64,000 nt of DNA from a phage. The translations under genes and the position numbers were made by a program. Below the pieces are notes generated by a model. The model was not told the DNA's origin. It made no database searches and saw nothing but the letters and a program-made list of their open reading frames with translations. Where the stretch lies: sequence record PX418213.1, one strand, 5' to 3'. Positions 29,675 through 43,976 of this stretch are shown here, piece by piece (the stretch's first letter is position 1; each line of letters opens with the position of its first letter).

Positions 29675-29693
29675 TATTATTACCTCAAGTGTT

Positions 29694-29784: not shown

Positions 29785-29804
29785 AATAATAAGATGATGC
29801 CTCT

Positions 29805-29893: not shown

Positions 29894-29896
29894 ATT

Positions 29897-29973: not shown

Positions 29974-29978
29974 GTATT

Positions 29979-30295: not shown

Positions 30296-30324
30296 ATTAT
30301 AACAAGAAATTAAGCATCAAGCAA
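30296..30324 (-). promoter_or_regulatory. T5-type promoter driving tRNA cluster segment
   Basis: TTGCTT, 17 bp, TATAAT; overlaps 3' end of CDS 30317-30685. Confidence 0.55.
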
Positions 30325-30685: not shown

Positions 30686-30704
30686 TTCCTTATTTTGAGT
30701 TAAT

Positions 30705-30778
30705 TGGTACTCGGTGATAGAATCGAACTATCGCAATCGCCGTGTAAAGACGGGGTTCTCCCATTAAACTAACCGAGC
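30705..30778 (-). tRNA. tRNA-Val (TAC), tentative
   Basis: acceptor GCTCGGT/ACCGAGT; T-arm GATAG-TTCGATT-CTATC; loop TTTACAC. Confidence 0.5.
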
Positions 30779-30782
30779 AATT

Positions 30783-30861
30783 TGGTAGATCGCCTGGGAC
30801 TCGAACCCAGAACCTTCCGATTAAAAGTCGGATGCTACTAAACCTATTGAGCTAGCGATCT
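30783..30861 (-). tRNA. tRNA-Lys (TTT)
   Basis: anticodon arm TCCGA-CTTTTAA-TCGGA; acceptor AGATCGC/GCGATCT. Confidence 0.7.
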
Positions 30862-30862
30862 A

Positions 30863-31030
30863 TTAGTAACCATTGTATACTTCTTTAATAGAGTGAATTT
30901 TCAAGTAAGGGTGATTAGTATTAAACTCTGCCATTACTTCATCCCAATTTTTACCGTAATGAGCGAGTAAGGATTTTGATGTATTCTTACCTAAACGTTT
31001 GTCACTTACTACTAATCGAAATACTTTCAT
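30863..31030 (-). CDS. small hypothetical protein (55 aa)
   Basis: hand-translated MKVFRLVVSDKRLGKN...; AGAGGA RBS. Confidence 0.4.
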   Translation of the reverse strand: MKVFRLVVSDKRLGKNTSKSLLAHYGKNWDEVMAEFNTNHPYLKIHSIKEVYNGY

Positions 31031-31050
31031 TTCGAAATCCTCTATTAAAA

Positions 31051-31128
31051 TGGAAGCGGGTGCAGGAATCGAACCTACCTCTTTCTAGCTTATGAGACTA
31101 GTGATCTCTACCAGAGATCTAACCCGCA
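31051..31128 (-). tRNA. tRNA, anticodon CAT (Met/fMet/Ile2)
   Basis: anticodon arm CTAGT-CTCATAA-GCTAG; T-arm GTAGG-TTCGATT-CCTGC; irregular acceptor end. Confidence 0.55.
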
Positions 31129-31134
31129 ATTGTT

Positions 31135-31212
31135 TGGTCTCCGTGGGAGGATTTGAACCCCCGACCCTATCGCCCCAAACGAAACGCTCTGGCCAAACTG
31201 AGCTACACGGAG
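31135..31212 (-). tRNA. tRNA-Pro (TGG)
   Basis: acceptor CTCCGTG/CACGGAG; D-arm GCTCAGTTTGGCCAGAGC; loop TTTGGGG. Confidence 0.6.
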
Positions 31213-31216
31213 AATA

Positions 31217-31375
31217 TTATTTCTTCAACCACAACAAAGATAAGCCCAACATACTAAAGCCGCTAACTAATCCGATACATTTTTCTTCTATAGTAAAAGT
31301 ATCTAGATTAAATGCTGTTATAGCTATTGGCATACACCATAATGCCATAAAAACTTGAGCTATCTTGTGTTTCAT
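31217..31375 (-). CDS. small membrane protein (52 aa)
   Basis: hand-translated MKHKIAQVFMALWCMPIAITAF...; GAAGGAAAG RBS; promoter directly upstream. Confidence 0.4.
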   Translation of the reverse strand: MKHKIAQVFMALWCMPIAITAFNLDTFTIEEKCIGLVSGFSMLGLSLLWLKK

Positions 31376-31407
31376 TTTGCTTTCCTTCTCTTCACTTTAT
31401 AAGATAT

Positions 31408-31436
31408 ATTATACAGAGAATTAAGCAGAATAGCAA
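31408..31436 (-). promoter_or_regulatory. T5-type strong sigma70 promoter
   Basis: TTGCTA, 17 bp, TATAAT. Confidence 0.6.
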
Positions 31437-31439
31437 ATG

Positions 31440-31828
31440 AATTTTTAATAAATTTACTTATTGTGTAGGCCACCTGGAGGCTACCAACCCCACGGCTGAC
31501 AAAGAAGTTTGCGAGACCTCTCTTAAATGCCAGAATAGACCCGCCGATCTATCGGAACCTACATAATAAGTAAACTTTATAGTGTCATTCTAGACAGGAC
31601 TCGAACCTGTTATCACTTGTGCGGACTTACGAGAACCATTCTTTCACTCGAATCGAACGAGCTTCTGCCCTAGCCAAGCTGGTTTCCCCATCAACCACGC
31701 TAGAATGTTTGATTGTTTTCAGTGCAAGAGTCCGAGTCTTGGACACGACCGCTTCGCAAGTACATAGGCAGCTTATCATGAGTCAGCACTTCCGAATTGC
31801 TAGCTCCGTGTTCTGCACTGAAATTTTG
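31440..31828 (-). ncRNA. structured non-coding region with tRNA-like elements
   Basis: no ORF; D-arm-like TGGTT-GATGGGGA-AACCA; two T-arm-like hairpins (CTCG-TTCGATT-CGAG and ACAGG-TTCGAGT-CCTGT); ATTCTAG/CTAGAAT complement about 120 nt apart; separate stem TTCAGTGCA/TGCACTGAA (31719-31727 with 31812-31820). Confidence 0.35.
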
Positions 31829-32176
31829 TTAATTTAATAGTAAAGTACGATCTACTTCACCATTAATTGTTCGGCACTCTTCTGGGATTGCTGGTGTAGC
31901 CTTATATTCCCACCATTCAGAACCGTCGTATTCACCACGTTCTAACCAAGTTCCGTCAGTAAACCATACATTACCATAAAGCAATTGCCCACCGAAACCC
32001 GAGTCATATTTAAAGTCTAGATTATTTAGAAAATCTTCAATATCTTTTTCTGTATAACCTACGGGCAATACCCAAACTTCTTTGTCTCCATAATAACCGA
32101 ATTCTATCTTAATACACTTAACTTCAGAATTAGTATTCTTTAGGGCAAGTAACAACTCTTCTTTAGCATTAATCAT
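31829..32176 (-). CDS. hypothetical protein
   Basis: 115-aa ORF. Confidence 0.5.
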   Translation of the reverse strand: MINAKEELLLALKNTNSEVKCIKIEFGYYGDKEVWVLPVGYTEKDIEDFLNNLDFKYDSGFGGQLLYGNVWFTDGTWLERGEYDGSEWWEYKATPAIPEECRTINGEVDRTLLLN

Positions 32177-32202
32177 AGCATATTTCTCGTGCTAGTTTAA
32201 TT

Positions 32203-32278
32203 TGGTACACCCACTAGGACTTGAACCTAGAACCCTCCGCTTAAGAGGCGGTAGCTCTAACCATTGAGCTATGGATGT
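32203..32278 (-). tRNA. tRNA, anticodon CTT (Lys-type), tentative
   Basis: acceptor ACATCCA/TGGGTGT; D-arm GCTCAATGGTTAGAGC; loop CTCTTAA. Confidence 0.5.
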
Positions 32279-32279
32279 A

Positions 32280-32438
32280 TTAAATTACTTTTTCCAGTTC
32301 ATCAGCTATGGCTTTGATTTTTTCAAAGTTTACATCACTTATAATGATACCTTCCAGTGACAGAGATATTCTAGCATTTTTCATAGCAGATTCTTTTATC
32401 TGCTCTATCTCTTCTGGAGTAAACTCCCTACGTTCCAT
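32280..32438 (-). CDS. small hypothetical protein (52 aa)
   Basis: hand-translated MERREFTPEEIEQIKESAMKNARISL...; AAGGTAGG RBS. Confidence 0.4.
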   Translation of the reverse strand: MERREFTPEEIEQIKESAMKNARISLSLEGIIISDVNFEKIKAIADELEKVI

Positions 32439-32455
32439 AGCTAACCTACCTTATT

Positions 32456-32532
32456 TGGCGCGACCGATGGGATTCGAACCCACATTCCCTCCCGTGACAG
32501 GGGAGTACCATTACCAAGCCAGCCCCGGTCGC
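32456..32532 (-). tRNA. tRNA-Asp (GTC)
   Basis: acceptor GCGACCG/CGGTCGC; anticodon arm CTCCC-CTGTCAC-GGGAG. Confidence 0.75.
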
Positions 32533-32541
32533 ATAATTCAT

Positions 32542-32727
32542 TTACTCAGCTTTGAGTTTTTCAATAGCTGCATTAAGTTCCTTAAGAAACTCTTTTCGTA
32601 CATTAAGACGATTAAGACTTACTAGTATATCATGTTTAAGTTCTTCGATGTATTTCTTCTCAACTTCAATATTGTTGAGAGTGCTATCACGATGAACCTC
32701 TAGCTGCGCAATTACATTCTTGGACAT
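32542..32727 (-). CDS. small coiled-coil protein
   Basis: 61-aa ORF. Confidence 0.4.
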   Translation of the reverse strand: MSKNVIAQLEVHRDSTLNNIEVEKKYIEELKHDILVSLNRLNVRKEFLKELNAAIEKLKAE

Positions 32728-32829
32728 GCTTGTTTCCTCAGTTATTAATGAAAATGGTATCTGTGGCTGAATTCGATGTCAGCAATGATAGCTGGTTGGC
32801 TACCGGTTTACTTAACTCTACACAGAATT

Positions 32830-32912
32830 TGGCGGGCCGTGTAGGATTCGAACCTACGTTGTCTTTCGACATGGATTAACAGTCCACCGCCAAACCGCTT
32901 GGCTAACGACCC
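32830..32912 (-). tRNA. tRNA, anticodon GTT (Asn-type) with 13-nt extra arm
   Basis: 83 nt; acceptor GGGTCGT/ACGGCCC; anticodon arm GTGGA-CTGTTAA-TCCAT; variable GTCGAAAGACAAC. Confidence 0.55.
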
Positions 32913-33064
32913 TAAATTTATATTGCTGACTAGGATTTTCACCTAGACGGAGTTAGCACCGTAGCGTGTAGCGGCATACCTCTCCAAACCGTGCCTCATC
33001 TTTCAATTACGGAGACAGTGTTCCTACGCGTGCCTGAATTGATTTAACAATTCTTTCAGCAAAT

Positions 33065-33140
33065 TGGACGACCGCATGAGATTTGAACTCACATAAAAAG
33101 GATTTGCAATCCTTCGCCTAAGCCATTCAGCCAACGGTCG
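33065..33140 (-). tRNA. tRNA-Cys (GCA)
   Basis: anticodon arm AAGGA-TTGCAAA-TCCTT; acceptor CGACCGT/GCGGTCG. Confidence 0.7.
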
Positions 33141-33188
33141 ATTTATCTTGTTCTGTCATGTTGCTTCTCCAGTTCAATTTATGTAATT

Positions 33189-33217
33189 ATTATACAGAAC
33201 TTTTGGAAACTAAGCAA
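33189..33217 (-). promoter_or_regulatory. T5-type promoter upstream of tRNA-Cys
   Basis: TTGCTT, 17 bp, TATAAT. Confidence 0.6.
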
Positions 33218-33497
33218 CTACATTTTTTAAGAATTTGATGCCTTTCTTTTTCTTCTTATATTTCCACGTTAATGGATTCTGTCGATTATGAACGCTTGAG
33301 ATCTTCGTCTCGTCAAAGTTCTTCAATATCATGTAATCACAAGATAATTGTTCTAGTGGAATGTGATCACCGTCAAAAGCGTATACATAGGGCTGTTGAC
33401 TAGCACGATAATGATAGACTTTGTTAATTCTACGTTTCAGCGACTTATCCGCGCAGTAAATAAAGAAGTTTTCAGGATGCATCAGCAGCTCCTTCAA
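33210..33497 (-). CDS. hypothetical protein
   Basis: 95-aa ORF. Confidence 0.5.
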   Translation of the reverse strand: MKELLMHPENFFIYCADKSLKRRINKVYHYRASQQPYVYAFDGDHIPLEQLSCDYMILKNFDETKISSVHNRQNPLTWKYKKKKKGIKFLKNVVA

Positions 33498-33499
33498 TT

Positions 33500-33574
33500 T
33501 GGTGCACCCTGTTCGTATCGAACGAACCTCTCAAGCTCTTCAGGCAAGCGCTAATCCATCTCAGCTAAAGGTGC
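33500..33574 (-). tRNA. tRNA, anticodon ambiguous (GAA-Phe or CTG)
   Basis: acceptor GCACCTT/AGGGTGC; T-arm GTTCG-TTCGATA-CGAAC; anticodon stem irregular. Confidence 0.45.
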
Positions 33575-33580
33575 AAATTT

Positions 33581-33660
33581 TGGCAAACCTACTAGGACTC
33601 GAACCTAGACCGTACGGTTTTGGAGACCGACATGCTGTCCAGTAACACTCTAGGAATGCA
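33581..33660 (-). ncRNA. tRNA-like element with mismatched acceptor
   Basis: T-arm CTAGG-TTCGAGT-CCTAG, variable hairpin ACCGTACGGT, 3' TAGGTTT-G-CCA; 5' strand pairs at only 5 of 7 positions. Confidence 0.35.
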
Positions 33661-33665
33661 GGAAT

Positions 33666-33742
33666 TGGCGTCCTGTGCGGGGGTCGAACCCGCAAATCCT
33701 ACCTTGAAAGGGTAGTGACTTTACCAGTTTGTCTAACAGGAC
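33666..33742 (-). tRNA. tRNA-Glu (TTC)
   Basis: acceptor GTCCTGT/ACAGGAC; anticodon arm CTACC-CTTTCAA-GGTAG. Confidence 0.75.
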
Positions 33743-33748
33743 TTAAAT

Positions 33749-33835
33749 TGGTGGGGAAAGATGGAGTCGAACCACCCGAGTCGCAATGACAACTGATTTA
33801 CAGTCAGCTCTGCTACCACTTACAGAATATTTCCC
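33749..33835 (-). tRNA. tRNA-Tyr (GTA)
   Basis: long-arm tRNA; acceptor GGGGAAA/TTTCCCC; anticodon arm GCTGA-CTGTAAA-TCAGT. Confidence 0.7.
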
Positions 33836-33967
33836 CATATTTAGAAGTATTCAAAAAATTCTAATTTAAACACTTTTAAATATGTTTCCAAATTAGGTAA
33901 CTATTATACCAAGTTTTAAGGCACTGAGCAAGTCAAATTTTAAAGAACTTGCTCAGTGCTGTATTGG

Positions 33968-34243
33968 TTAGTCGAACTTAGGAGTGACAGTTAAGGAGAA
34001 TGGAAGTTCGAAAACTTCTTCACCCTCATTACTAACAGTAATTACACGACCTTTAAGTTCAGACATTGAAATATCAATATCAGCTTTTGCATCCGGAGCC
34101 ATGCCAGCTTCAACACATTTAGCTTTAATTTCCGGCAGAAGTTCTACATCATAGAAATAAAGCCATTCAATCTCACCTTCCCAGCCTTCCCAGGATTTAC
34201 AGATTGCACTTTCAATACCAGCTGCTATAACACGATTTTGCAT
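33968..34243 (-). CDS. hypothetical protein
   Basis: 91-aa ORF. Confidence 0.5.
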   Translation of the reverse strand: MQNRVIAAGIESAICKSWEGWEGEIEWLYFYDVELLPEIKAKCVEAGMAPDAKADIDISMSELKGRVITVSNEGEEVFELPFSLTVTPKFD

Positions 34244-34273
34244 TCATTAACTCCTTCATCAATTTATATAACT

Positions 34274-34303
34274 ATTATATCAGAAATTTAAAGCAAAAGG
34301 CAA
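34274..34303 (-). promoter_or_regulatory. T5-type sigma70 promoter
   Basis: TTGCCT, 18 bp, TATAAT. Confidence 0.5.
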
Positions 34304-34333
34304 GTACATTTTTAAAAATTCTGTTTGGAGGAG

Positions 34334-34540
34334 CTAAACTCCAGATTCTTCAGCCAAGTCTAGGCTAATAAGAGATATAGCCATAATTGCCGCTCCATGT
34401 TCTTTTTCTCCAGTCTCTTTAGCTAGAGTTATAATGTCAAGAAATTGCTTATGAAAATCTGCAACCTCTTGAGTTATACCTGCCTCAGCAATCATGCCTT
34501 TAAGCATAAAACGTTGTGCAGTAATTTCAGGATTAGCCAT
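34334..34540 (-). CDS. hypothetical protein
   Basis: 68-aa ORF. Confidence 0.45.
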   Translation of the reverse strand: MANPEITAQRFMLKGMIAEAGITQEVADFHKQFLDIITLAKETGEKEHGAAIMAISLISLDLAEESGV

Positions 34541-34700
34541 GTTGTTTCTCCAGTTTCATCTTTAATAGTCTACAAATAAAATCAATGTCTTCATCCGTGC
34601 CTAGATCTCTGTCTTCAAGAGTTGCCTTGAAGTTTTTAGTCAATTCCATGAGGATAACTTCCCTAGAACGACGTGTTGGCGGAGGTGGATGTCTATACAT
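34533..34700 (-). CDS. small hypothetical protein (55 aa)
   Basis: hand-translated MYRHPPPPTRRSREV...; AAGGAAA RBS; stop overlaps next start. Confidence 0.4.
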   Translation of the reverse strand: MYRHPPPPTRRSREVILMELTKNFKATLEDRDLGTDEDIDFICRLLKMKLEKQHG

Positions 34701-34715
34701 CTTATTTCCTTAATT

Positions 34716-34792
34716 TGGTAGGGGTGGTGGGATTCGAACCCACAAAACCTGAATTTTAAGTCCAGTACCTATGCCAATTCGATTACACCCCC
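34716..34792 (-). tRNA. atypical tRNA, anticodon TAA (Leu codon) but class-I length
   Basis: 77 nt; acceptor GGGGGTG/CACCCCT; D-loop GAATTGG; anticodon arm CTGGA-CTTAAAA-TTCAG; no long variable arm. Confidence 0.5.
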
Positions 34793-34893
34793 ATGTAATC
34801 AGTTTATTAGTTGATACATATTATAGCCTAGTGAAAATCCTACTACTAGTCCCACAAACCAACCAATATAATAATCTTTTAGTTTCACAGGTA

Positions 34894-35079
34894 TTATCCT
34901 CTTTCAATATCTAGAGAAATACCACAGTTAGGATTAATACCTGTACCCTTGCAATTTGGGCAAATCCATATATTGCAAAAAGTATCTCCTGCTTCTGCAT
35001 CAGAACTTTCACCAATTCCCCTACACTCAGGGCAGGCGCATTCTTCTAGCTCTTGCTTGAGTTCTTGAAACTTGGACAT
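34894..35079 (-). CDS. small zinc-ribbon-like protein
   Basis: 61 aa; CPECRG...CPNCKG. Confidence 0.5.
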   Translation of the reverse strand: MSKFQELKQELEECACPECRGIGESSDAEAGDTFCNIWICPNCKGTGINPNCGISLDIERG

Positions 35080-35088
35080 ATAGTCTCC

Positions 35089-35277
35089 TTAGTTAATTAC
35101 TTTTGAGGCTTCTAAAGCATTAACGTAGTAAACATCTTCTACATTATACATATAGTCTACTACTTTGTCCATAGCATGGAGTTCGGATGTAGCCTTTACT
35201 AGTCTGTACCCTTGTTTAAACTCGTCCGAACGTTCTCTATCTTGTGCAAATTTAACAGAAACTATGAATAATTCCAT
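35089..35277 (-). CDS. hypothetical protein
   Basis: 62-aa ORF. Confidence 0.45.
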   Translation of the reverse strand: MELFIVSVKFAQDRERSDEFKQGYRLVKATSELHAMDKVVDYMYNVEDVYYVNALEASKVIN

Positions 35278-35296
35278 TAATTGTCCTTATTTAATT

Positions 35297-35374
35297 TGGT
35301 GGCTCCCCGAGGATTCGAACCTACGTACCTTCCGGTTATGAGCCGGGTGCTCATACCATATGAGCTTGAGAACC
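35297..35374 (-). tRNA. tRNA, anticodon CAT (Met/Ile2)
   Basis: acceptor GGTTCTC/GGGAGCC with G-U pairs; loop CTCATAA; T-stem has mismatches. Confidence 0.5.
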
Positions 35375-35380
35375 AAAATC

Positions 35381-35469
35381 TGGCGGAAGAAGTGGGAATC
35401 GAACCCACAAGGCTATATTTCAAACCGACAGATTAGCAATCTGCTGCAATACCGTTATGCTATTCTTCC
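35381..35469 (-). tRNA. tRNA-Ser (GCT)
   Basis: 89 nt long-arm tRNA; acceptor GGAAGAA/TTCTTCC; anticodon arm GCAGA-TTGCTAA-TCTGT. Confidence 0.65.
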
Positions 35470-35484
35470 GAATTTATAAGATAT

Positions 35485-35513
35485 ATTATATTAGAAATTT
35501 AGCTTCATAGCAA
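35485..35513 (-). promoter_or_regulatory. T5-type promoter upstream of tRNA-Ser(GCT)
   Basis: TTGCTA, 17 bp, TATAAT. Confidence 0.6.
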
Positions 35514-36060
35514 GAAAATTTTTCAAGTTTTCGGTAGACATCTCATCCATATCTACGGGAGAAACAAAGCCGTTTAATTTTCTAGCAAATTTTTCACCTG
35601 CAGGGTCATTATCCCCAACAGCTACCAATTTAAAAGGTAGTAATTTCAGTTGCTTTAATAATGCTTTTCCTGGAGAAGAACCCAACATTGCCAGGGCTGG
35701 ATAACCAGCGTTATGTAGCGCCACTGCCTTAAATACAGACTCAGCAATCAATACTACTTTTTCATCTCCATTGAGAGTTTCTAGTCCCCATACACACTGG
35801 GTAGTAGAATAAGTAAAATATTTAGCTTCAAAGGGGCACTTACCATGACCTTTTGGAGCAGAAGGATTATAAGTTTGATAGCCCCTCAACATCCCAGAGA
35901 AGTCATACAACGGGACTGTTAGCCATCCTTCCGGACTTAACCAGCAATGATATTTATCTGTATCAAATCCTCTAGATAAGAGGTGCTGTGTTAGCTCATC
36001 AACATTCATATTTGGTTCCTCTCTCAAATTTATAGATATATTATACTGAGAATTTAGCAT
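35491..36060 (-). CDS. Toprim-domain protein (primase-like fragment)
   Basis: VLIAESVFKAVAL...VAVGDNDPAGEKF resembles DnaG-type Toprim E...DxD motifs; only 189 aa. Confidence 0.55.
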   Translation of the reverse strand: MLNSQYNISINLREEPNMNVDELTQHLLSRGFDTDKYHCWLSPEGWLTVPLYDFSGMLRGYQTYNPSAPKGHGKCPFEAKYFTYSTTQCVWGLETLNGDEKVVLIAESVFKAVALHNAGYPALAMLGSSPGKALLKQLKLLPFKLVAVGDNDPAGEKFARKLNGFVSPVDMDEMSTENLKNFLAMKLNF

Positions 36061-36068
36061 TCAAGCAA
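36040..36068 (-). promoter_or_regulatory. T5-type strong sigma70 promoter
   Basis: TTGCTT, 17 bp, TATAAT. Confidence 0.6.
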
Positions 36069-36184
36069 TCAAATTTTTTAACTTTTTAGAGGAAAATCAT
36101 AGGGCACTTAAGGGTAGCAGATAAGTGGTGAGGACCAAAATTTGTGACCCCACTAAAAATTCAGGGGCAATTTTTAAAGACCCC

Positions 36185-36213
36185 TTGACATTTTCGCTGG
36201 GGTAGTGTAAAGT
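36185..36213 (+). promoter_or_regulatory. sigma70-type promoter for plus-strand three-gene module
   Basis: TTGACA (36185-36190), 17-bp spacer, TAAAGT; AGGAGG RBS before 36266. Confidence 0.4.
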
Positions 36214-36265
36214 ATATGTTATGGATGAGTGATCAAAGAGACACACATTTTCTATATACTAGGAG

Positions 36266-37261
36266 GTGTCAAAAATGACAGAAGAAGTAGCTAAGAGTCC
36301 TGAGACCGTCGCTAGCGTTGCAGCAGAACTGCACCGTCACGAGGAATCAGATAAGAAAAAGTGGGAGAAGGTCAGAGCCTACGAAGAAAAACATCGTGAA
36401 CACGATGATGAAGAAGATGACGATGATGAACATTGTCATAAATATGGAAAACATAAAATGCAAGAACCAGTAAACGTATTTACTAGTGGCTTCCCTGGCC
36501 TACTGGGTGGTTACCCAGCAAACGCAGGTGCTTTCGGTGGTGAAGGTATGGGACTATTCGGAGCTATCCTAATCGGTGCTCTATTAACAGGCGGATTCGG
36601 TGGATTCGGTGGATTCGGTGGACGTGGTATAGTTGGTGAAGGTACCGCAGTTGATGCAGTACTTCAGAACCAAGATACCGCTAGTATTCTAGCAGCTATT
36701 AACACTACTCGTACAGAAGCTAATCAGGGTACTGGGGCTGTTTTAAGCGCAGTTAACAATGGTTTTAGCCAGACATCCCAAAACCAGAGCCGTGATACTC
36801 AGTCTGTACTAACTACGATCTATGGTACAGGTGCTAATCTGTCTAATCAGATCTGCCAGGAAACTCGCAATGTTATTCAGGGTCAGTTCGATCTTTCTCG
36901 CCAGATTGATCAATCTTTCGCAGCTAATCAGATAGCTCGTGCACAAGATAAGTTTGATTCTGCACAGATCGCTTTCCAGCAGACTTTACAAACTAATAAC
37001 CAGTTTGCCGCTGTTCAGGCTCAGATGTGTGCTAACCAGAACTCTCTGGAACGTCAGATCGCTGAATGTTGCTGTGAACTTCAGACTGCGATCGCTGGTG
37101 TAACTACTGCGCGTATCCAGGATGAGTTAGACGCATGTCGCCTACGTGAAGCAATCGCTGCGGGTAGCGGTGCTAACGGTCAGGTAATTAATCAAATCGC
37201 TTTAAGTCTTGGTGCTATCACTCAGACTCTGGCTGGTCTGCAGGCTAAACTGCCGGCTTAA
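36266..37261 (+). CDS. glycine-zipper membrane protein with Q/N-rich coiled-coil-like tail
   Basis: 331 aa; His/acid-rich N-terminus (HREHDDEEDDDDEHCH); GLFGAILIGALLTGGFGGFGGFGG; long Q/N/S/T-rich region with ECCCE. Confidence 0.6.
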   Translation: MSKMTEEVAKSPETVASVAAELHRHEESDKKKWEKVRAYEEKHREHDDEEDDDDEHCHKYGKHKMQEPVNVFTSGFPGLLGGYPANAGAFGGEGMGLFGAILIGALLTGGFGGFGGFGGRGIVGEGTAVDAVLQNQDTASILAAINTTRTEANQGTGAVLSAVNNGFSQTSQNQSRDTQSVLTTIYGTGANLSNQICQETRNVIQGQFDLSRQIDQSFAANQIARAQDKFDSAQIAFQQTLQTNNQFAAVQAQMCANQNSLERQIAECCCELQTAIAGVTTARIQDELDACRLREAIAAGSGANGQVINQIALSLGAITQTLAGLQAKLPA

Positions 37262-37282
37262 TATTAAGGGGAGGAGCCCATT

Positions 37283-37699
37283 ATGAGTAAATATGGTTTT
37301 GTAAATAACGGACTTAATCAAAGTATGGGCTCCCAGCAGCCCGTTCCGGGTCTGGATAACCCCTACTTACAACAGTTGCAACAGCGTTTAGCAGAAGCGC
37401 AACAGATGCAGCAACAACTCCAGCAAAACCCTGGAAGTGTAAGTCCTATGCAAATGATGCAGCAAATGAGCGGGCAGTCGCAAATGTCTCAACAAATGCA
37501 GCAACAGATGCCGCAGCAGCAAGTTCAACAACAAACCCAACAACCGCAGGTTTCTGCGGAAGGACAGGCAGTACTAGCCCTTTTCGAAGACTTCGCAAAG
37601 ACAGAGGATGGGAAACAGCTTGTATCACTTATGGGTAAGTTTAATAGCTTCTGCCAAAGCCAAGTTGCAAAAGCTCAAAATGGTGGTAATAACTCCTAA
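37283..37699 (+). CDS. Gln/Met-rich low-complexity protein
   Basis: 138 aa; central QQLQQRLAEAQQMQQQLQQ...QQMQQQMPQQQVQQQTQQPQ; GGAGG RBS. Confidence 0.55.
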   Translation: MSKYGFVNNGLNQSMGSQQPVPGLDNPYLQQLQQRLAEAQQMQQQLQQNPGSVSPMQMMQQMSGQSQMSQQMQQQMPQQQVQQQTQQPQVSAEGQAVLALFEDFAKTEDGKQLVSLMGKFNSFCQSQVAKAQNGGNNS

Positions 37700-37708
37700 G
37701 GAGAAATT

Positions 37709-37903
37709 ATGTGTTGCAGAAAATCTGTTTCGTGCTGCCCAATGCCTGTAGCACGTTGTTGCTCTCCAGCAATGTTTACGCAAATACCGGCGTTCAATCC
37801 GTTTGCCTTTAAGCCTACTCTTATCCTGCCCCCTAGAGTGGATTTTCAGTCAAGATTGGCCTCCCGTATGGGTGGTTGCTGTACACCGAGAGTGTGGTTC
37901 TAA
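37709..37903 (+). CDS. small Cys-doublet-rich peptide
   Basis: 64 aa with four CC doublets (MCCRKSVSCCPMPVARCC...GGCC); AGGAGA RBS; followed by terminator. Confidence 0.45.
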   Translation: MCCRKSVSCCPMPVARCCSPAMFTQIPAFNPFAFKPTLILPPRVDFQSRLASRMGGCCTPRVWF

Positions 37904-37913
37904 ACCAAAAACA

Positions 37914-37950
37914 AAAGCCCCTGCCGAAAGGTAAGGGGCTTTTTCTTTTG
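37914..37950 (+). terminator. rho-independent terminator
   Basis: AGCCCCT...AGGGGCT hairpin followed by TTTTTCTTTT. Confidence 0.65.
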
Positions 37951-37959
37951 CCTTAAATA

Positions 37960-37994
37960 CAGAAAAGCCCGCGCTCTCGGAGGAAACGCGGGCT
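37960..37994 (-). terminator. rho-independent terminator for SPFH gene
   Basis: GCCCGCG...CGCGGGC hairpin with U-run on minus strand. Confidence 0.6.
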
Positions 37995-38018
37995 TGGTTC
38001 GAAGATTACGTGTAACTA

Positions 38019-38966
38019 TTACTTGTTACGCATATCCATGATCATTTGACCATCGTAGCCAGTACCTACCACAGTCTGAGGTACACCACCTTGATATTTC
38101 TGAGCACGAATCATCTCAACTTCCAGTTGTTTCCAACGAATCATCTCAGGAGTAATAGTACGTTGCAATGCGGCGTTAGCTTCAGCTTCTTTCTTAGCTG
38201 CGTACAGTTTAGCATCTGCGTCACGTTCATTAGCAATAGCTTGGTTGTTGCGAGCTTCACGATCTGCTTCTGCTTGTTTAACCTTCTGCTGTGCTTCTTG
38301 TTCAACACGAGCCAGTTCAGCTTTTGCAGCATTAACTTGCTCTTCACGAACTTTGGTATTCTGTACCTGCTCCATGATTACCGGTGGCAAAGTAATATCC
38401 TGAAGGAACACCTGCTTAACTGTGTAACCATATGGGCGTGCATACTCTTCAACTTCCTGTTGAATTGCAGTTTGCAATTGAGCCTGAATTTTAGCATCAA
38501 ACAAATCTTGTGCTTTAGGTACAGACTTACCAAACTCACGAATAGTAGACAGTAATTTTTCAGTTACATATTTGTCTAACGCTTGATCCTGAGTACCTGC
38601 ATTAATACGGTTAATCGGTGCCTTAGAACCATCAAACTGCAACATAACAGTCAGGTCAACAGTGGATTTAAACTTATCCTGACTAGGAACCTGAAGTTTA
38701 TCTAATTTTAGAGCAATATCTTTTGTACTAAAAGTATCGAAAGAAGCAAAAGGATTTACAATATGAAAGCCGGGTAATACTGGATTAGGGTCTACTTTAC
38801 CCAGGAAAGTCTGGGTTTTAACAGTACCGTCTTGAACAACAGTATAGGAGTTAAGGGCCAGAACTAAACCTACCAAACCAACTGCAGCACCAATACCCCA
38901 ACGTTTGATATTACGCATCAATTTTTGCTCATAAGTCAGTTCTTTAGTGTTTTTAGTAGCAAACAT
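38019..38966 (-). CDS. SPFH/band-7 (prohibitin/HflKC-like) membrane protein
   Basis: 315 aa; N-terminal TM (WGIGAAVGLVGLVLAL); band-7-like core; C-terminal coiled coil. Confidence 0.65.
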   Translation of the reverse strand: MFATKNTKELTYEQKLMRNIKRWGIGAAVGLVGLVLALNSYTVVQDGTVKTQTFLGKVDPNPVLPGFHIVNPFASFDTFSTKDIALKLDKLQVPSQDKFKSTVDLTVMLQFDGSKAPINRINAGTQDQALDKYVTEKLLSTIREFGKSVPKAQDLFDAKIQAQLQTAIQQEVEEYARPYGYTVKQVFLQDITLPPVIMEQVQNTKVREEQVNAAKAELARVEQEAQQKVKQAEADREARNNQAIANERDADAKLYAAKKEAEANAALQRTITPEMIRWKQLEVEMIRAQKYQGGVPQTVVGTGYDGQMIMDMRNK

Positions 38967-39000
38967 ATATTTCCTTTGTTTTAGTTACAGTTAATAAAAT

Positions 39001-39075
39001 TGGCCGAGGTGACAGGATTCGAACCTGCATAAAGGAATTTAGAAGACTCCTGCCTCTCCCTTAGACTACACCCCG
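39001..39075 (-). tRNA. tRNA-Arg (TCT)
   Basis: acceptor CGGGGTG/CACCTCG; anticodon arm GGAGT-CTTCTAA-ATTCC. Confidence 0.7.
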
Positions 39076-39083: not shown

Positions 39084-39584
39084 TTATTTAATCAGATTAG
39101 CTTGACTTTCCACTGCTTCTGTAGCAGCTTTCTCAGCAATTCTAGCAGCTCGATTTGTCCTAGCTTTAGCAATTATCTTTTTATATTGTTCATCTATTAG
39201 ATCTTCTATCTCGTCATAGAATCTACATTGGTCTAGATAATTTATTGCATCAACATTATAAAGTTTTATATGTAATGCAGAGCTACGACCACCTTTCAAT
39301 GTGCTTTCTAAGATCTGTGGACGATAACGTCTAAGAGTATCTTTTGCCTTTTTAACTTCACCAGTTTCTTCTCCTAATTGGATTAGGTGATAAAGTCGGG
39401 TGTTATCAACGTAGTGCAGTTCAACACTGTGATATTCACCTTCACGAAGATTAAATCCGGTGAGTTTACTCATCTTTTCCTGTGCTTGTTCCAGTGTAAG
39501 CCGCTCCGTAAAATGAACTACGTACAGGATATGAGGACAACACATCTCTTGATGATCAAATATACAAGTAGTTCCTAGATTCAT
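39084..39584 (-). CDS. hypothetical protein
   Basis: 166-aa ORF. Confidence 0.5.
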   Translation of the reverse strand: MNLGTTCIFDHQEMCCPHILYVVHFTERLTLEQAQEKMSKLTGFNLREGEYHSVELHYVDNTRLYHLIQLGEETGEVKKAKDTLRRYRPQILESTLKGGRSSALHIKLYNVDAINYLDQCRFYDEIEDLIDEQYKKIIAKARTNRAARIAEKAATEAVESQANLIK

Positions 39585-40433: not shown

Positions 40434-40877
40434 TTAATTAAATTCTCCAGCAATCTGAGCAGCAGTACCACCATCATAACGCCCAGGAAATTCTTCCTTA
40501 ATCGCTTTCATCAGCATACCCTTTGTAATTCCAGGGTTTAGCTTAACTAATTCTGCAAAGTATTTACGAATCTCAGTATCAGATAACTGAGGAGGCAGAT
40601 ACTCCTGCAACCATTTATTTAGAATGTACTCATACTGAGCAGACTGCAAGCTATAACTATCAAGATCTTGACCATGAAGTTTAGCTTTCATCTGGTTAAT
40701 GCTTTTTAGTTGAGCTTTGAGATAAGACACAAATTGTTCAGAAGTGATGAAATCTTTATCAATACGCTGAAGATCCCCAATTATGGTCTGATAGCTTTTA
40801 GCGACTTCTTTATCAGAACCATTAAACTTAGAATCCTGCAAAGCTCTACGCAAAACATCTAAAATATTCTCTTCCAT
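40434..40877 (-). CDS. GatB/YqeY-domain protein
   Basis: 147 aa; C-terminal ...ITKGMLMKAIKEEFPGRYDGGTAAQIAGEF resembles YqeY family. Confidence 0.55.
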   Translation of the reverse strand: MEENILDVLRRALQDSKFNGSDKEVAKSYQTIIGDLQRIDKDFITSEQFVSYLKAQLKSINQMKAKLHGQDLDSYSLQSAQYEYILNKWLQEYLPPQLSDTEIRKYFAELVKLNPGITKGMLMKAIKEEFPGRYDGGTAAQIAGEFN

Positions 40878-41047: not shown

Positions 41048-41078
41048 ATTTCGCTTCCTCTCATTAATTTATGAAAGT

Positions 41079-41107
41079 ATTATACAGAAATTTAAGTAGT
41101 TGAGCAA
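41079..41107 (-). promoter_or_regulatory. T5-type sigma70 promoter
   Basis: TTGCTC, 17 bp, TATAAT. Confidence 0.55.
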
Positions 41108-41115
41108 GTAAATTT

Positions 41116-41565
41116 TTAAGTTTTAGTGACAACAGGTTTATAGAATGTATGTCCCTTAATCTTAGTTGTTTTCTTAAATTTCTTTGTCCAGTAAGGTTTA
41201 TCTTTACCACTATGGAAGTATAGTGCTCCATGTGTAGGATCTTGTGGTAAATCAACGTAGTATATCACTCTAGCTAAATTCTTAGCGGTTTGCCAAGCCT
41301 CATCAGTTTTATCAACTTTTGGTCTCTTAGATACCCAAGAGAACTGGTTAGACTGATATACTACTTTACAGTAGGAATCTGGGAATTTACCGGAGTTTAC
41401 ACGGTTTTTAGTAACATGTGCAATCGCCGTCATTCCCTTTATGCCCTCACCACGACTTTCGAAATAGATATTTTTAGCAATGCAATCTATTTCTTTTGCA
41501 TCGTGCGATGCCTGACTACTAAAGCTGAAGGTAAGGGCAGCTACTAAAAGCAAAGCTGCCTTCAT
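41116..41565 (-). CDS. secreted SleB-like cell-wall hydrolase
   Basis: start moved to Met with AGGAG RBS; signal peptide MKAALLLVAALTFSFSSQA; core ...NIYFESRGE...AIAHVTKNR... Confidence 0.6.
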   Translation of the reverse strand: MKAALLLVAALTFSFSSQASHDAKEIDCIAKNIYFESRGEGIKGMTAIAHVTKNRVNSGKFPDSYCKVVYQSNQFSWVSKRPKVDKTDEAWQTAKNLARVIYYVDLPQDPTHGALYFHSGKDKPYWTKKFKKTTKIKGHTFYKPVVTKT

Positions 41566-41569: not shown

Positions 41570-41887
41570 TTACTCCTGCCAATCATATTCAACACGATTG
41601 GGATTTTCTTTATACCCTAAGTCAAGCAAATCATTACGCATATTTTGCTTAGCTACTGGGTTCGAGGTTACTAGTACCACTTTCTTTGGTCTCTGCCCAA
41701 ATTCTAAGAGTAAACGAAGAATTTGATAACCTTCCATACCATCTACAGCCAAGTCATTATCCATATAAACGAAATGGCCTGTGGTATCAGTTTTATTCAG
41801 AAACTCTACAGCGGCTTCTGGGGTTCGAATGATAATGTCCATTCCGTGAAGATTACGCACATCATCAATCAAAATATGAAAAGTCAT
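41570..41887 (-). CDS. hypothetical protein, possible receiver-like fold
   Basis: 105-aa ORF; domain call is weak. Confidence 0.45.
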   Translation of the reverse strand: MTFHILIDDVRNLHGMDIIIRTPEAAVEFLNKTDTTGHFVYMDNDLAVDGMEGYQILRLLLEFGQRPKKVVLVTSNPVAKQNMRNDLLDLGYKENPNRVEYDWQE

Positions 41888-41917
41888 AATAGCCTCGTTT
41901 CATCAATTTAAAAATAT

Positions 41918-41946
41918 ATTATACATATAATTTAGTAGATTAGCAA
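41918..41946 (-). promoter_or_regulatory. T5-type strong sigma70 promoter
   Basis: TTGCTA, 17 bp, TATAAT. Confidence 0.6.
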
Positions 41947-42329: not shown

Positions 42330-42968
42330 TTACTCTACTTCAATGAAGGTAGAGGCGTTAGACTCGGACAGAACAAAGTCAACATTTGTTGCAAAGTCCT
42401 GATATTCCTCGTCATGCTGCTTAATCAGCTTTTCCAGTTCCAGCGGATCAATCAAGAATGGAGTATTCTTGAGTTCCAGCAGGTTGAGCTGCATTTTAAC
42501 TTCATCTTCGGAAGTTTTCTTATCGCGGGTAGCCATGCTATCCTGCAAACGCTCATATTTAGCATCAAACTGTGCTTTCTGCGTATTAAACTTAACCGTA
42601 GCGGCATGGAACTGCTTACGCATATTAGCCAGCAGTTGGGCTTTAAGTTCCATAGAACGCTTAGCTTCAATTGCTTCCGCAACAGTCATCTTACGAGAGC
42701 CAATCTCAACGATTGTTTCCGCATTGCTTTTAATCAGAGCAGATTTGATACGATCACGCTGGGACATCATATCCAGGAGAGATTGGAAATCTGCCTTAAT
42801 ACGAGTAGACAAATCAGCTACTTCGATTGCAGCGCCAACTACAACCTGGTTTTTATCCTTACCTTCGCCAACAGCGATCAGAAGCTGCTGTTCAGTAGCT
42901 TTACGGATTTTAGCTTCCAGAGATTTGATAGTTGCCAGAGCGCGAGTTTTAGAGATACGAGTAGTCAT
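42330..42968 (-). CDS. hypothetical coiled-coil protein
   Basis: 212-aa ORF; overlapping plus-strand ORFs judged spurious. Confidence 0.55.
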   Translation of the reverse strand: MTTRISKTRALATIKSLEAKIRKATEQQLLIAVGEGKDKNQVVVGAAIEVADLSTRIKADFQSLLDMMSQRDRIKSALIKSNAETIVEIGSRKMTVAEAIEAKRSMELKAQLLANMRKQFHAATVKFNTQKAQFDAKYERLQDSMATRDKKTSEDEVKMQLNLLELKNTPFLIDPLELEKLIKQHDEEYQDFATNVDFVLSESNASTFIEVE

Positions 42969-43274: not shown

Positions 43275-43976
43275 TCAAATTTTCATTTTTTCGATCATAG
43301 CTGCAACACAATAGCTCTCAACTAAGGCATCAAATGCAGGAGCATGCTTAACCGGATAGATCCCATAACGAATGGTGTCCATCTTTTCCATTTTAGCTAT
43401 TGCCCAGCTAATACCTTCGGTCTCTAGAGCTTTATAACTGTATCCAGCTTGCATCCAGAGATTACGAAGAGATCGAACATTGCCCAAATTCCAGAATTTC
43501 CACGGAACTACCTCTTCATTGGTTCCAGCATGGAACGTATTTGCAGAGTAGATAGTCATATCAAACTCTGGGCCATTGCCATAATACAAAGCATTTTCGC
43601 CTAGAGCCAACTCCATAATATTTTGAGCCATAGAGAAGGCAGCATAGTTTGAGCCTAATTTATTAGTGCAATGATGTTTACCATTTTGGAAGGCAATCAG
43701 TTTTGGATTACGTTCCTTCATAGCTTCCATAATGTGGATAGCAGACGGACTATTTTTAGCTTGATCCATCCAGAATGCTAGAGTAGATGCTGTAACTTTG
43801 GCACCAGAATTAAGTTGATCTTGCACATCCAAAGTAACAAATACTAGATCAGGGTCTTTATCAATTCCATGCATAGCCACAAAAGCGAAAGAAGGCATTG
43901 CGATATGAGTAGTACCACAATCTCCTGGAGTTCCTAGAGATTCAATATCTAGCATACCAAATGGTTTTACTTTCAT
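43275..43976 (-). CDS. DEDD-family 3'-5' exonuclease-like protein
   Basis: 233 aa; N-terminal FGMLDIESLG resembles DnaQ-like Exo I motif. Confidence 0.5.
   Translation of the reverse strand: MKVKPFGMLDIESLGTPGDCGTTHIAMPSFAFVAMHGIDKDPDLVFVTLDVQDQLNSGAKVTASTLAFWMDQAKNSPSAIHIMEAMKERNPKLIAFQNGKHHCTNKLGSNYAAFSMAQNIMELALGENALYYGNGPEFDMTIYSANTFHAGTNEEVVPWKFWNLGNVRSLRNLWMQAGYSYKALETEGISWAIAKMEKMDTIRYGIYPVKHAPAFDALVESYCVAAMIEKMKI

What the first reader, a model, noticed from the sequence alone, without database searches (positions are those of the whole stretch)
41116..41565. Secreted SleB-like cell-wall hydrolase in addition to the endolysin
A second peptidoglycan hydrolase with a cleavable signal peptide is unusual for a phage that already has a cytoplasmic endolysin. 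It could aid lysis from without or remodel the envelope during early infection.
Basis: partly seen in the sequence, partly recalled or inferred. Interest (0 to 1): 0.45.

Follow-up and report, generated by a model that had tools for sequence, protein, structure and literature searches.

The report
Exported SleB-like wall hydrolase of T5
The gene is real: it is the long-annotated but never-tested T5.083 gene of T5-like phages, a small cell-wall-cutting enzyme that carries an export signal and sits far from the phage's normal lysis genes, which is conserved and mildly interesting rather than new.

Summary
Window 41116..41565 (minus strand) encodes a 149-aa protein. It has a typical Sec/signal-peptidase-I leader (MKAALLLVAALTFSFSSQA|SH) followed by one SleB/CwlJ-type catalytic domain (Pfam PF07486, E=2e-25). 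A confident model superposes on the Bacillus SleB catalytic domain, and the catalytic Glu (E36) is invariant.

The window is the left 64 kb of a T5-like phage, and the gene is the ortholog of T5.083 (97% identical). It is already annotated as "SleB putative cell wall hydrolase", "endolysin" or "spore cortex-lytic enzyme precursor". About 520 phage records carry it, roughly as many as carry the true endolysin, whose ortholog lies at 18685..19098 beside a T-type holin.

The mature domain is under strong purifying selection (dN/dS 0.06-0.12). The leader changes sequence quickly but keeps its shape and its AxA cleavage site. The gene is second in an early sigma-70 operon, behind a cREC_REC gene.

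Similar exported SleB-like "second lysins" occur in rV5-like and phAPEC8-like phages, and Kayvirus Tgl is a tested analogue.

In a published T5 knock-down screen the gene had no fitness effect. Its role, most likely an accessory periplasmic lytic transglycosylase, remains inferred. A virion-borne role in lysis from without is unlikely.

The parts
41116..41565 (-). CDS of 149 aa, ortholog of T5.083: an exported single-domain SleB/CwlJ-family (Hydrolase_2) peptidoglycan hydrolase
   Evidence: ORF and sequence. 97% aa identity to T5.083. Pfam PF07486 E=2.2e-25. PHROG 938. PDB 4F55/4FET. AF2 plus Foldseek.
41509..41565 (-). Codons 1-19: predicted Sec signal peptide MKAALLLVAALTFSFSSQA, with predicted cleavage after Ala19 (SQA|SH)
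   Evidence: Rule-based analysis: n-h-c layout, 13-aa h-region, small residues at -3 and -1, no TM-length hydrophobic window, no lipobox. Layout and AxA position conserved across homologs despite fast sequence change. 138 of 149 diverse representatives have a hydrophobic N-terminus. Not run through SignalP.
41119..41508 (-). Codons 20-149: mature catalytic domain. About 15 kDa, pI 9.7, net charge about +12, with a Lys-rich C-terminal tail
   Evidence: Pfam match spans residues 39-142. Model helices and strands. Physicochemical values. dN/dS 0.06-0.12.
41458..41460 (-). Codon of Glu36, the predicted catalytic glutamate in the motif YFESRGE
   Evidence: Aligns with the Glu of YGESRGE in 4F55 and 4FET. 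By chain offset this is E157/E151; the identity of those residues as catalytic is from my own recollection of Li 2012 and Jing 2012. Invariant in 34 of 34 homologs. The equivalent Glu is needed for toxicity of a SleB-like T6SS effector (PMC11148199).
41482..41484 (-). Codon of Cys28, one half of a conserved Cys pair
   Evidence: Present in 33 of 34 homologs; the one exception is N-terminally truncated. Co-occurs with Cys66 in 146 of 149 representatives, and no representative has only one of the two. A disulfide is inferred; no distance was measured.
41368..41370 (-). Codon of Cys66, the other half of the conserved Cys pair
   Evidence: Invariant in alignment A1. Co-occurrence data. Absent from Bacillus SleB at the aligned position.
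41573..41577 (-). Shine-Dalgarno AGGAG, 7 nt before the ATG. It overlaps the end of the upstream gene, whose stop TAA is at 41572..41570
   Evidence: Read directly from the sequence.
41570..41887 (-). Upstream co-transcribed gene (T5.084 ortholog, 105 aa) with a cREC_REC receiver-like domain and no export signal
   Evidence: Pfam PF20274 E=3.8e-15. PHROG 1479. Only 4 nt separate it from the hydrolase ATG.
41913..41946 (-). Early-type sigma-70 promoter of the cREC_REC/hydrolase operon: TTGCTA, 17 nt, TATAAT, then ATATT
   Evidence: Consensus scan found 10 of 12 matches. Sequence read directly. Lies at the position of the promoter annotated upstream of T5.084 in NC_005859. The ATATT discriminator is the T5 early-promoter signature (PMC7472727). 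The scan as a whole was no richer than shuffled sequence (5 sites against 6.7 expected).
18685..19098 (-). Context: the canonical leaderless endolysin (T5 Lys/EndoT5 ortholog, an L-alanyl-D-glutamate peptidase)
   Evidence: 99% identity to T5 Lys. PDB 2MXZ E=1e-90.
19095..19751 (-). Context: holin of the T4 T-holin family, overlapping the endolysin start
   Evidence: Pfam PF11031 E=4.8e-113. T5.041 is annotated as holin.
21272..22005 (-). Context: two overlapping ORFs (117 and 149 aa) at the position of the T5.044/T5.045 Rz-like spanins
   Evidence: ORF list and T5 annotation. Assigned by position and size only; not tested separately.

Best explanation
The gene encodes a small pre-protein. Its 19-residue leader sends it through the Sec translocon and is removed by signal peptidase I. 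That releases a soluble, very basic, roughly 15-kDa single-domain SleB/CwlJ-family enzyme into the periplasm of the infected cell. There it most likely cuts the glycan strands of the host sacculus as a lytic transglycosylase, using Glu36. A Cys28-Cys66 disulfide probably stabilises it.

It is made from an early sigma-70 promoter as the second gene of a two-gene operon, without any need for the holin. I consider it an accessory muralytic enzyme. It would pre-load the periplasm and act together with the holin-released L-Ala-D-Glu peptidase endolysin, one cutting glycan and the other cutting peptide stems. This would make lysis faster or more robust, with little effect on intact energised cells until the holin fires.

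Shown here: the ORF, the domain, the fold, the catalytic residue, the leader features, the conservation, the purifying selection and the operon/promoter anatomy. Inferred: export and cleavage, the bond cleaved, the disulfide, and above all the physiological role.
For: Identity. Pfam PF07486 scores E=2e-25 with full profile coverage. The SleB catalytic domain is the only significant PDB match by sequence and by fold (TM 0.78-0.80). E36 is invariant.

Export.
- The leader has a classical n-h-c layout with an AxA site, no TM-length hydrophobic window and no lipobox.
- The leader evolves fast (dN 0.4-0.67) while keeping this layout and the AxA position, whereas the mature part has dN/dS 0.06-0.12.
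- 138 of 149 diverse representatives have a hydrophobic N-terminus, and 146 of 149 carry both cysteines together.

Activity on Gram-negative walls is plausible.
- The homologous Vequintavirinae protein CB7_83 has a signal peptide and is toxic when expressed in E. coli (PMC7344957).
- A SleB-fold T6SS effector rounds and bursts E. coli from the periplasm, and an E-to-Q change abolishes this (PMC11148199).
- In Chaseviridae phage MLP1 the SleB-like gene sits directly after the holin gene.

Early, holin-independent supply.
- The promoter carries the T5 early ATATT discriminator.
- The gene lies 22 kb from the lysis cassette.
- Distant metagenomic homologs also sit among early and nucleotide-metabolism genes.

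Accessory role.
- The gene is co-conserved with the endolysin (521 against 527 records).
- T5.083 knock-down was 'Not Fit' in CRISPRi-ART. So was lys, while the holin was 'Fit' (PMC11879866 supplement). This is compatible with two partly redundant lysins.
- Kayvirus Tgl is an experimentally shown case of a secreted, early-promoter lytic transglycosylase acting alongside the main endolysin (PMC7150955).
Against: - There is no biochemical or genetic test of T5.083 or any Demerecviridae ortholog. Literature searches found annotation mentions only.
- Bacillus SleB needs muramic-delta-lactam in cortex peptidoglycan (my own knowledge), which E. coli lacks. The substrate preference must therefore differ and is unproven.
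- An active lytic transglycosylase exported from early times should harm the cell before progeny are made. What restrains it is unknown.
- The CRISPRi-ART 'Not Fit' call is weak evidence, because several T5 genes expected to matter (the virion genes N4 and ltf, the replication gene D13, nrdA) were also 'Not Fit'.
- No dedicated signal-peptide predictor was run.
- The Cys pair also occurs in a leaderless homolog, Acinetobacter phage Ab5, so it does not prove export.
Confidence: 0.6

Rival explanations
1. Early envelope remodeller rather than a lysis factor. The exported enzyme acts during the early or middle period to loosen or edit the sacculus. Possible purposes are allowing cell enlargement, blocking division, altering the wall against superinfecting phages, or producing anhydromuropeptides. 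Any contribution to final lysis would be incidental.
For: - The early-type promoter and the position among early and nucleotide-metabolism genes hold in T5-like phages and in distant metagenomic relatives.
- In rV5 the SleB-like gene overlaps the start of the early gene rIIA.
- The gene is separate from the lysis cassette.
- T5 is known to make other early envelope-targeted proteins, such as Llp/lpp for superinfection exclusion, listed in the CRISPRi-ART table.
Against: - The T5 holin and endolysin are themselves encoded in the early region, so position does not separate the two roles.
- No phenotype is known.
- The closest tested analogue, Tgl, behaves as an additional lysin.
Confidence: 0.22
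2. Signal-anchor-release (SAR) type or membrane-tethered lysin. The N-terminal segment is not cleaved. It holds the enzyme inactive in the inner membrane until membrane depolarisation releases it, as for P1 Lyz or phage 21 R.
For: - Predicted signal peptides on lysins of Gram-negative phages are usually read as SAR domains (PMC8223927).
- Tethering would explain how an early-made enzyme is kept harmless.
- Some relatives, such as PAK_P1, have longer TM-like N-termini without an obvious AxA site.
Against: - The h-region is only 13 residues and rich in Leu rather than Gly/Ala/Ser.
- The best 19-residue hydrophobicity is 1.34, below the usual TM level.
- An AxA site sits at a fixed distance from the domain in the first nine sequences of alignment A1.
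Confidence: 0.13
3. Virion-associated or extracellular enzyme for 'lysis from without' or for wall penetration at entry.
For: - The mature protein is very basic (pI 9.7), and its last 30 residues carry about +9. This trait is linked to outer-membrane-active lysins, and Hydrolase_2 lysins are noted for high positive charge (PMC8223927).
- SleB-fold domains do occur inside phage proteins of more than 1000 aa, which may be virion proteins.
Against: - A Sec leader removes the protein from the cytoplasm where virions assemble.
- It is an early gene far from the structural module.
- It was not among the four virion proteins identified for T5-like AKFV33, although that survey was shallow.
- T5 tails carry their own wall-active tip protein pb2 (my own knowledge).
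Confidence: 0.03
4. Decaying or non-catalytic remnant: a wall-binding protein or a dispensable passenger gene with no enzymatic role.
For: - The knock-down had no fitness effect.
- At least one T5-like genome has a frameshifted copy (P0033 from Klebsiella phage vB_Kpn_3). The EPS7 entry is only 72 aa.
Against: - dN/dS is 0.06-0.12.
- The catalytic Glu is invariant and the domain is full length across about 520 records.
Confidence: 0.02

Closest known systems
T5.083 of Escherichia phage T5 (NC_005859 42290-42739) and its orthologs in Demerecviridae (SPC35_0073, AKFV33 ORF81, phiLLS ORF55)
   Same: It is the same gene. Identity is 97% to T5 and 99-100% to Spc35 and T5_ev219. The neighbours are the same (T5.082, T5.084), as are the promoters.
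   Different: Nothing of substance differs. The public names vary (endolysin, SleB putative cell wall hydrolase, spore cortex-lytic enzyme precursor, hypothetical protein), and none of them rests on experiment.
Bacillus SleB and CwlJ germination-specific cortex-lytic enzymes (Pfam PF07486; PDB 4F55, 4FET)
   Same: The catalytic-domain fold, the YxESRGE motif and the catalytic Glu are shared. Like CwlJ it is a single domain. SleB is also made with a signal peptide (the 4FET molecule is named 'prepeptide').
   Different: It has no N-terminal PG-binding domain. It scores 50 bits against the 236.5-bit cut-off of the SleB equivalog model TIGR02869. It carries an extra conserved Cys pair. The host wall lacks muramic-delta-lactam. 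It has no link to spores, YpeB or germination.
Kayvirus Tgl (Staphylococcus phages; PMC7150955)
   Same: It is the functional analogue: a secreted enzyme with lytic-transglycosylase motifs, transcribed from an early host-RNAP promoter, encoded in addition to the main late endolysin, and lytic for E. coli when expressed with its signal peptide.
   Different: Tgl belongs to a different fold family (IsaA/SceD-like), infects a Gram-positive host, and lies only a few genes from lysK. The T5 gene is 22 kb from lys.
SleB-like proteins of Vequintavirinae and Stephanstirmvirinae (rV5 ORF2, CB7_83, CR3_087, phAPEC8-like)
   Same: They are exported single-domain Hydrolase_2 proteins, about 41% identical in the domain, that coexist with a separate lysozyme-type endolysin. 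CB7_83 has a predicted signal peptide and is toxic in E. coli.
   Different: They sit in a different genomic context (overlapping rIIA in rV5, next to a candidate holin in CB7). rV5 lacks the Cys28/Cys66 pair at the aligned positions.
SAR endolysins (P1 Lyz, phage 21 R) and Sec-exported endolysin Lys44 of Oenococcus phage fOg44
   Same: These are also muralytic enzymes that reach the wall compartment through Sec without the holin and are thought to be restrained until the membrane is depolarised (my own knowledge; the SAR reading is discussed in PMC8223927).
   Different: Those are the sole endolysins of their phages and belong to lysozyme families. SAR domains are uncleaved. Here a cleavage site is conserved and a separate canonical endolysin exists.

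Membership tests
Pfam PF07486 Hydrolase_2 (SleB/CwlJ catalytic domain) | Profile match above the curated gathering score | tested here: met
   89.7 bits against a cut-off of 27, profile positions 1-100 of 100.
Pfam PF07486 Hydrolase_2 (SleB/CwlJ catalytic domain) | SleB catalytic-domain fold | tested here: met
   AF2 model with pLDDT 91.2. Foldseek matches to 4FET and 4F55 with probability 1.00, TM 0.71-0.80 and rmsd 2.4-2.9 A. No other PDB fold scored below E=1.
Pfam PF07486 Hydrolase_2 (SleB/CwlJ catalytic domain) | Conserved catalytic glutamate | tested here: met
   E36 aligns with the Glu of YGESRGE in 4F55 and 4FET and is invariant in 34 homologs.
Pfam PF07486 Hydrolase_2 (SleB/CwlJ catalytic domain) | Lytic transglycosylase chemistry (1,6-anhydroMurNAc products) | not testable with these tools
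   Needs muropeptide analysis of digested sacculi.
SleB proper (NCBIfam TIGR02869 spore_SleB equivalog) | Whole-protein score above the equivalog cut-off, including the N-terminal PG-binding domain | tested here: not met
   50.3 bits against a cut-off of 236.5. Only profile positions 79-201 match. No second Pfam domain was found. The public name 'spore cortex-lytic enzyme precursor' is therefore an over-annotation.
SleB proper (NCBIfam TIGR02869 spore_SleB equivalog) | Acts on muramic-delta-lactam cortex peptidoglycan during spore germination | not testable with these tools
   The hosts named in related records are non-sporulating Enterobacteria. Substrate specificity needs biochemistry.
Sec/SPase I secreted protein | Positively charged n-region, 7-15 residue hydrophobic h-region, and small residues at -3 and -1 | tested here: met
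   The leader reads MK / AALLLVAALTFSF / SSQA|S, with no TM-length window and no lipobox. The layout is conserved in homologs. This is rule-based only; SignalP was not available.
Sec/SPase I secreted protein | Demonstrated export and cleavage | not testable with these tools
   Needs fractionation, reporter fusions or N-terminal sequencing.
Canonical holin-dependent endolysin | Leaderless muralytic enzyme encoded in a lysis cassette with holin and spanins | tested here: not met
   The protein has a leader. The gene lies 22 kb from the lys/holin/spanin cluster at 18.7-22.0 kb. Its neighbours are a cREC_REC gene and DUF7616.
Canonical holin-dependent endolysin | Required for host lysis | tested here: inconclusive
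   Published T5 CRISPRi-ART data call T5.083 'Not Fit'. The screen also calls lys and several T5 genes expected to matter 'Not Fit'.
SAR endolysin | Uncleaved, weakly hydrophobic, Gly/Ala/Ser-rich N-terminal transmembrane domain of about 16-22 residues | tested here: not met
   The h-region has 13 residues and is Leu-rich. An AxA site is conserved at a fixed position. The maximum 19-residue Kyte-Doolittle value is 1.34. Experimental topology was not tested.

The most novel reading that the evidence does not exclude
T5-like phages may run a two-enzyme, two-route lysis system. An early, Sec-exported lytic transglycosylase (T5.083) would be pre-positioned in the periplasm and be functionally redundant with the holin-released peptidase EndoT5. 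That would explain why knock-down of the holin, but of neither lysin alone, costs T5 fitness in the CRISPRi-ART screen. If true, the exported enzyme must be held silent in energised cells by a mechanism not yet known for cleaved-leader lysins of Gram-negative phages.
Probability: 0.25. Interest if true: 0.45.

Novelty: already known. Interest (0 to 1): 0.22.

Why it matters
If the inferred role holds, T5 and its roughly 500 sequenced relatives carry a holin-independent second wall-cutting enzyme. That bears on how lysis timing is secured and on why single-lysin knock-downs show no defect.

The enzyme is also small, very basic and directed at Gram-negative walls, in a fold family with little biochemistry, so it has some value as an enzybiotic lead.

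As it stands, the finding re-discovers a gene already annotated in the T5 reference genome. What this analysis adds is clarification:
- The name 'spore cortex-lytic enzyme precursor' is an over-annotation.
- The leader and a Cys pair are conserved family traits.
- The gene is early, is co-transcribed with a cREC_REC gene, and is under strong purifying selection.

Tried and rejected
- Literature on T5.083. Searches for 'T5.083', 'SleB' with 'phage T5', 'spore cortex-lytic enzyme' with 'T5-like', 'PF07486' and 'Hydrolase_2' returned genome-annotation mentions only. A phage transposon-mutagenesis preprint contains nothing on T5.
- The two SleB structure papers (PMC3415495, PMC3621120) are not held. 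The numbering E157/E151 for the catalytic Glu therefore rests on the chain offsets plus my own recollection.
- I considered using the conserved Cys28/Cys66 pair as proof of periplasmic location and rejected it. The leaderless Acinetobacter phage Ab5 homolog has both cysteines and rV5 has neither. The model coordinates cannot be downloaded, so the Cys-Cys distance could not be measured.
- The promoter/terminator scan found no more promoter-like sites than shuffled sequence (5 against 6.7) and no terminator. The promoter call therefore rests on correspondence with the T5 annotation and on the ATATT signature, not on the scan.
- The longer GTG start at 41595 (159 aa) was rejected in favour of the ATG, because of the AGGAG at the right spacing and the consistent public annotation.
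- The antisense ORFs inside the gene (41290..41547 +, 41064..41255 -) overlap the conserved minus-strand CDS and were not pursued.
- Obligate linkage with the upstream cREC_REC gene was rejected. In Sugarlandvirus the hydrolase follows a different gene, and in SE3 a gap of about 530 bp separates the two.

Full report
**What the window is**

A 5-kb stretch around the finding is 98.5% identical in DNA to many Tequintavirus genomes, including Spc35, vB_Sen-E22 and Th1. The gene order matches the left arm of phage T5 (NC_005859): the pre-early and early region, a block of 24 tRNA genes, then nucleotide-metabolism genes.

**The observation**

The ORF lies at exactly the given coordinates, on the minus strand. 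It runs from ATG 41565 to the stop at 41116 and encodes 149 aa. An AGGAG lies 7 nt before the ATG, and the stop codon of the upstream gene falls between them.

- The protein is 97% identical to T5.083 and 99-100% identical to the orthologs in Spc35 and T5_ev219.
- It matches Pfam PF07486 (Hydrolase_2, the SleB/CwlJ catalytic domain) over the whole profile at E=2.2e-25, and PHROG 938 'endolysin'.
- The only solved structures it matches by sequence are the catalytic domains of B. cereus and B. anthracis SleB.
- An AlphaFold model built on 34 homologs has pLDDT 91. It superposes on those two structures only (TM 0.71-0.80, rmsd 2.4-2.9 A).
- Glu36, in YFESRGE, aligns with the Glu of YGESRGE in SleB. 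By chain offset that is E157 or E151, the catalytic residue as I recall it from Li 2012 and Jing 2012. It is invariant in the homolog alignment.

**The leader**

No signal-peptide predictor was available, so the analysis is rule-based.

- The N-terminus reads MK / AALLLVAALTFSF / SSQA|SH. That is one positive charge, a 13-residue Leu-rich core, and Ser and Ala at -3 and -1.
- No 19-residue window is hydrophobic enough for a membrane span (maximum 1.34), and there is no lipobox cysteine.
- Comparative data are more telling. Between T5-like genera the leader changes quickly (dN 0.4-0.67) while the mature part is strongly constrained (dN/dS 0.06-0.12). Yet the window protein and its eight closest homologs in alignment A1 keep the n-h-c layout and an Ala at -1 exactly eight residues before Cys28.
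- In an exhaustive search of 1.84 billion representative proteins the family has 14,485 clusters at E<=1e-3. Among the 149 nearest clusters, 138 have a hydrophobic N-terminus. 146 carry both Cys28 and Cys66 equivalents, and none has only one.
- This points to an exported subfamily with a probable disulfide. The Cys pair alone does not prove export, because a leaderless Acinetobacter-phage homolog also has it.

**The 'second enzyme' claim**

The canonical lysis cassette is elsewhere in the window.

- A leaderless 137-aa protein at 18685..19098 is 99% identical to T5 Lys, the L-alanyl-D-glutamate peptidase solved as 2MXZ.
- It overlaps a holin of the T4 T-holin family at 19095..19751.
- Two ORFs sit at the position of the T5 spanins, at 21272..22005.

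So the phage does encode two wall-cleaving enzymes with different bond specificities and different routes to the wall.

**Context and expression**

- The hydrolase is the second gene of a two-gene unit. Four nucleotides upstream ends a 105-aa cREC_REC receiver-like gene, the T5.084 ortholog.
- Before that gene lies TTGCTA, 17 nt, TATAAT, followed by ATATT. This is the position of a promoter annotated in T5. ATATT is the discriminator signature reported for T5 early promoters (PMC7472727).
- Immediately after the hydrolase stop, another promoter serves the next gene.
- The pairing with cREC_REC is not obligatory, since Sugarlandvirus and SE3 differ.
- Homologs at 42-48% identity on 85-95-kb metagenomic phage contigs also sit among early and nucleotide-metabolism genes rather than in a lysis cassette.

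**How common it is**

- About 521 phage records carry a homolog at 60% identity or more, against 527 for the endolysin. Both are therefore core genes of T5-like phages.
- More distant homologs (30-47% identity) occur in about 760 further records, from rV5-like, phAPEC8-like, PAK_P1-like, Chaseviridae and other phages. The fold is frequent in a library of viral structure models.
- rV5 ORF2 'SleB' has a signal peptide and overlaps the start of rIIA.
- In Chaseviridae phage MLP1 the homolog follows the holin directly and is presumably the main lysin.
- The literature already notes the SleB-like protein of Vequintavirinae, its signal peptide and its toxicity in E. coli (PMC7344957). It also notes two lytic proteins in a Phapecoctavirus (PMC10793346).
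- For T5-like phages the literature only lists the gene, as in AKFV33 ORF81 and phiLLS.

**Function**

There is no direct experiment on this protein.

- Activity of the fold on Gram-negative walls is plausible. A SleB-fold T6SS effector rounds and bursts E. coli from the periplasm, and this requires the aligned Glu (PMC11148199).
- The best functional analogue is Kayvirus Tgl. It is a secreted enzyme with lytic-transglycosylase motifs, transcribed from an early-type promoter, that acts as an additional lysin beside LysK (PMC7150955).
- In the published genome-wide CRISPRi-ART screen of T5, knock-down of T5.083 had no fitness effect, nor had knock-down of lys, while the holin was 'Fit' (PMC11879866 supplement).
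- This fits two partly redundant lysins. However, the screen also missed several T5 genes expected to matter, so it is weak evidence.
- My best reading is an accessory, Sec-exported periplasmic lytic transglycosylase that cooperates with the endolysin at lysis.
- The rivals are a pre-lysis envelope-remodelling role, a SAR-type tethered form, and, unlikely, a virion or 'from without' role. That last role conflicts with export from the cytoplasm where virions assemble.

**Naming**

The protein belongs to the Hydrolase_2 domain family but is not an equivalog of SleB. It scores 50 bits against a 236.5-bit cut-off for TIGR02869 and lacks the N-terminal wall-binding domain. 'Spore cortex-lytic enzyme precursor' is an over-annotation. 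'Endolysin' is not established either.

**Verdict**

The gene is already known and annotated, its occurrence is the rule in this phage family, and the suggested roles remain untested. Interest is low to moderate.

Noticed in passing
window 39084..39584 (-): A 166-aa ORF with no Pfam or PHROG match lies between tRNA-Arg (39001..39075) and the YqeY-like gene, where T5 has only the annotated stable 'rnaX' RNA. Homologs occur in just 92 phage records, mostly Epseptimavirus at 61-65% identity, and only one (Kenya-K44) exceeds 90%. This probably explains why megablast covers only 89% of 39000-44000 in the closest genomes. It looks like a mosaic accessory gene.
   Followed up: partly
window 41570..41887 (-): The gene co-transcribed with the hydrolase carries a cREC_REC ('cyclic-phosphate processing receiver') domain (PF20274, E=3.8e-15). 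It is annotated only as hypothetical in T5 (T5.084). Its function in a phage early operon is unknown.
   Followed up: partly
window 19095..19751 (-) and 18685..19098 (-): The T5-type holin belongs to the T4 T-holin family (PF11031, E=4.8e-113). In published CRISPRi-ART data the holin is 'Fit' while the endolysin next to it is 'Not Fit'.
   Followed up: partly
L003 (phage rV5) 2402..2902 and 2899..4881: The rV5 SleB-like gene overlaps the start of rIIA by 4 nt, so in that family an exported wall hydrolase appears to be co-expressed with the rII genes.
   Followed up: no
window 42330..42968 (-), 43275..43976 (-), 40434..40877 (-): Public names of the neighbouring genes look unreliable. The 'tail fiber protein' (T5.085 ortholog) lies in the early region and has no Pfam match. 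The gene called 'metallopeptidase' or 'exonuclease' matches an Rv2179c-like 3'-5' exoribonuclease domain (E=3.6e-8). The 'tRNA amidotransferase' rests on a YqeY-like match below the Pfam cut-off (25.4 against 27 bits).
   Followed up: no
window 38019..38966 (-): The T5.080 ortholog, annotated 'lipoprotein', is an SPFH/Band 7 domain protein (PF01145, E=3.2e-17). It is another envelope-associated early protein of unknown role.
   Followed up: no
P0033 (Klebsiella phage vB_Kpn_3) and BFVD entry B2I4C9 (phage EPS7): A few T5-like genomes carry truncated copies of the hydrolase: 96 aa with a frameshifted tail after about residue 78, and a 72-aa fragment. These are either sequencing errors or occasional loss of the gene.
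   Followed up: partly
window 26362..39075 (-): All 24 tRNA genes lie on the minus strand, interspersed with small ORFs, as in T5. The set includes tRNA-Lys(CTT) and tRNA-Leu(TAA), which are not among the tRNAs annotated in the stretch of T5 examined.
   Followed up: no
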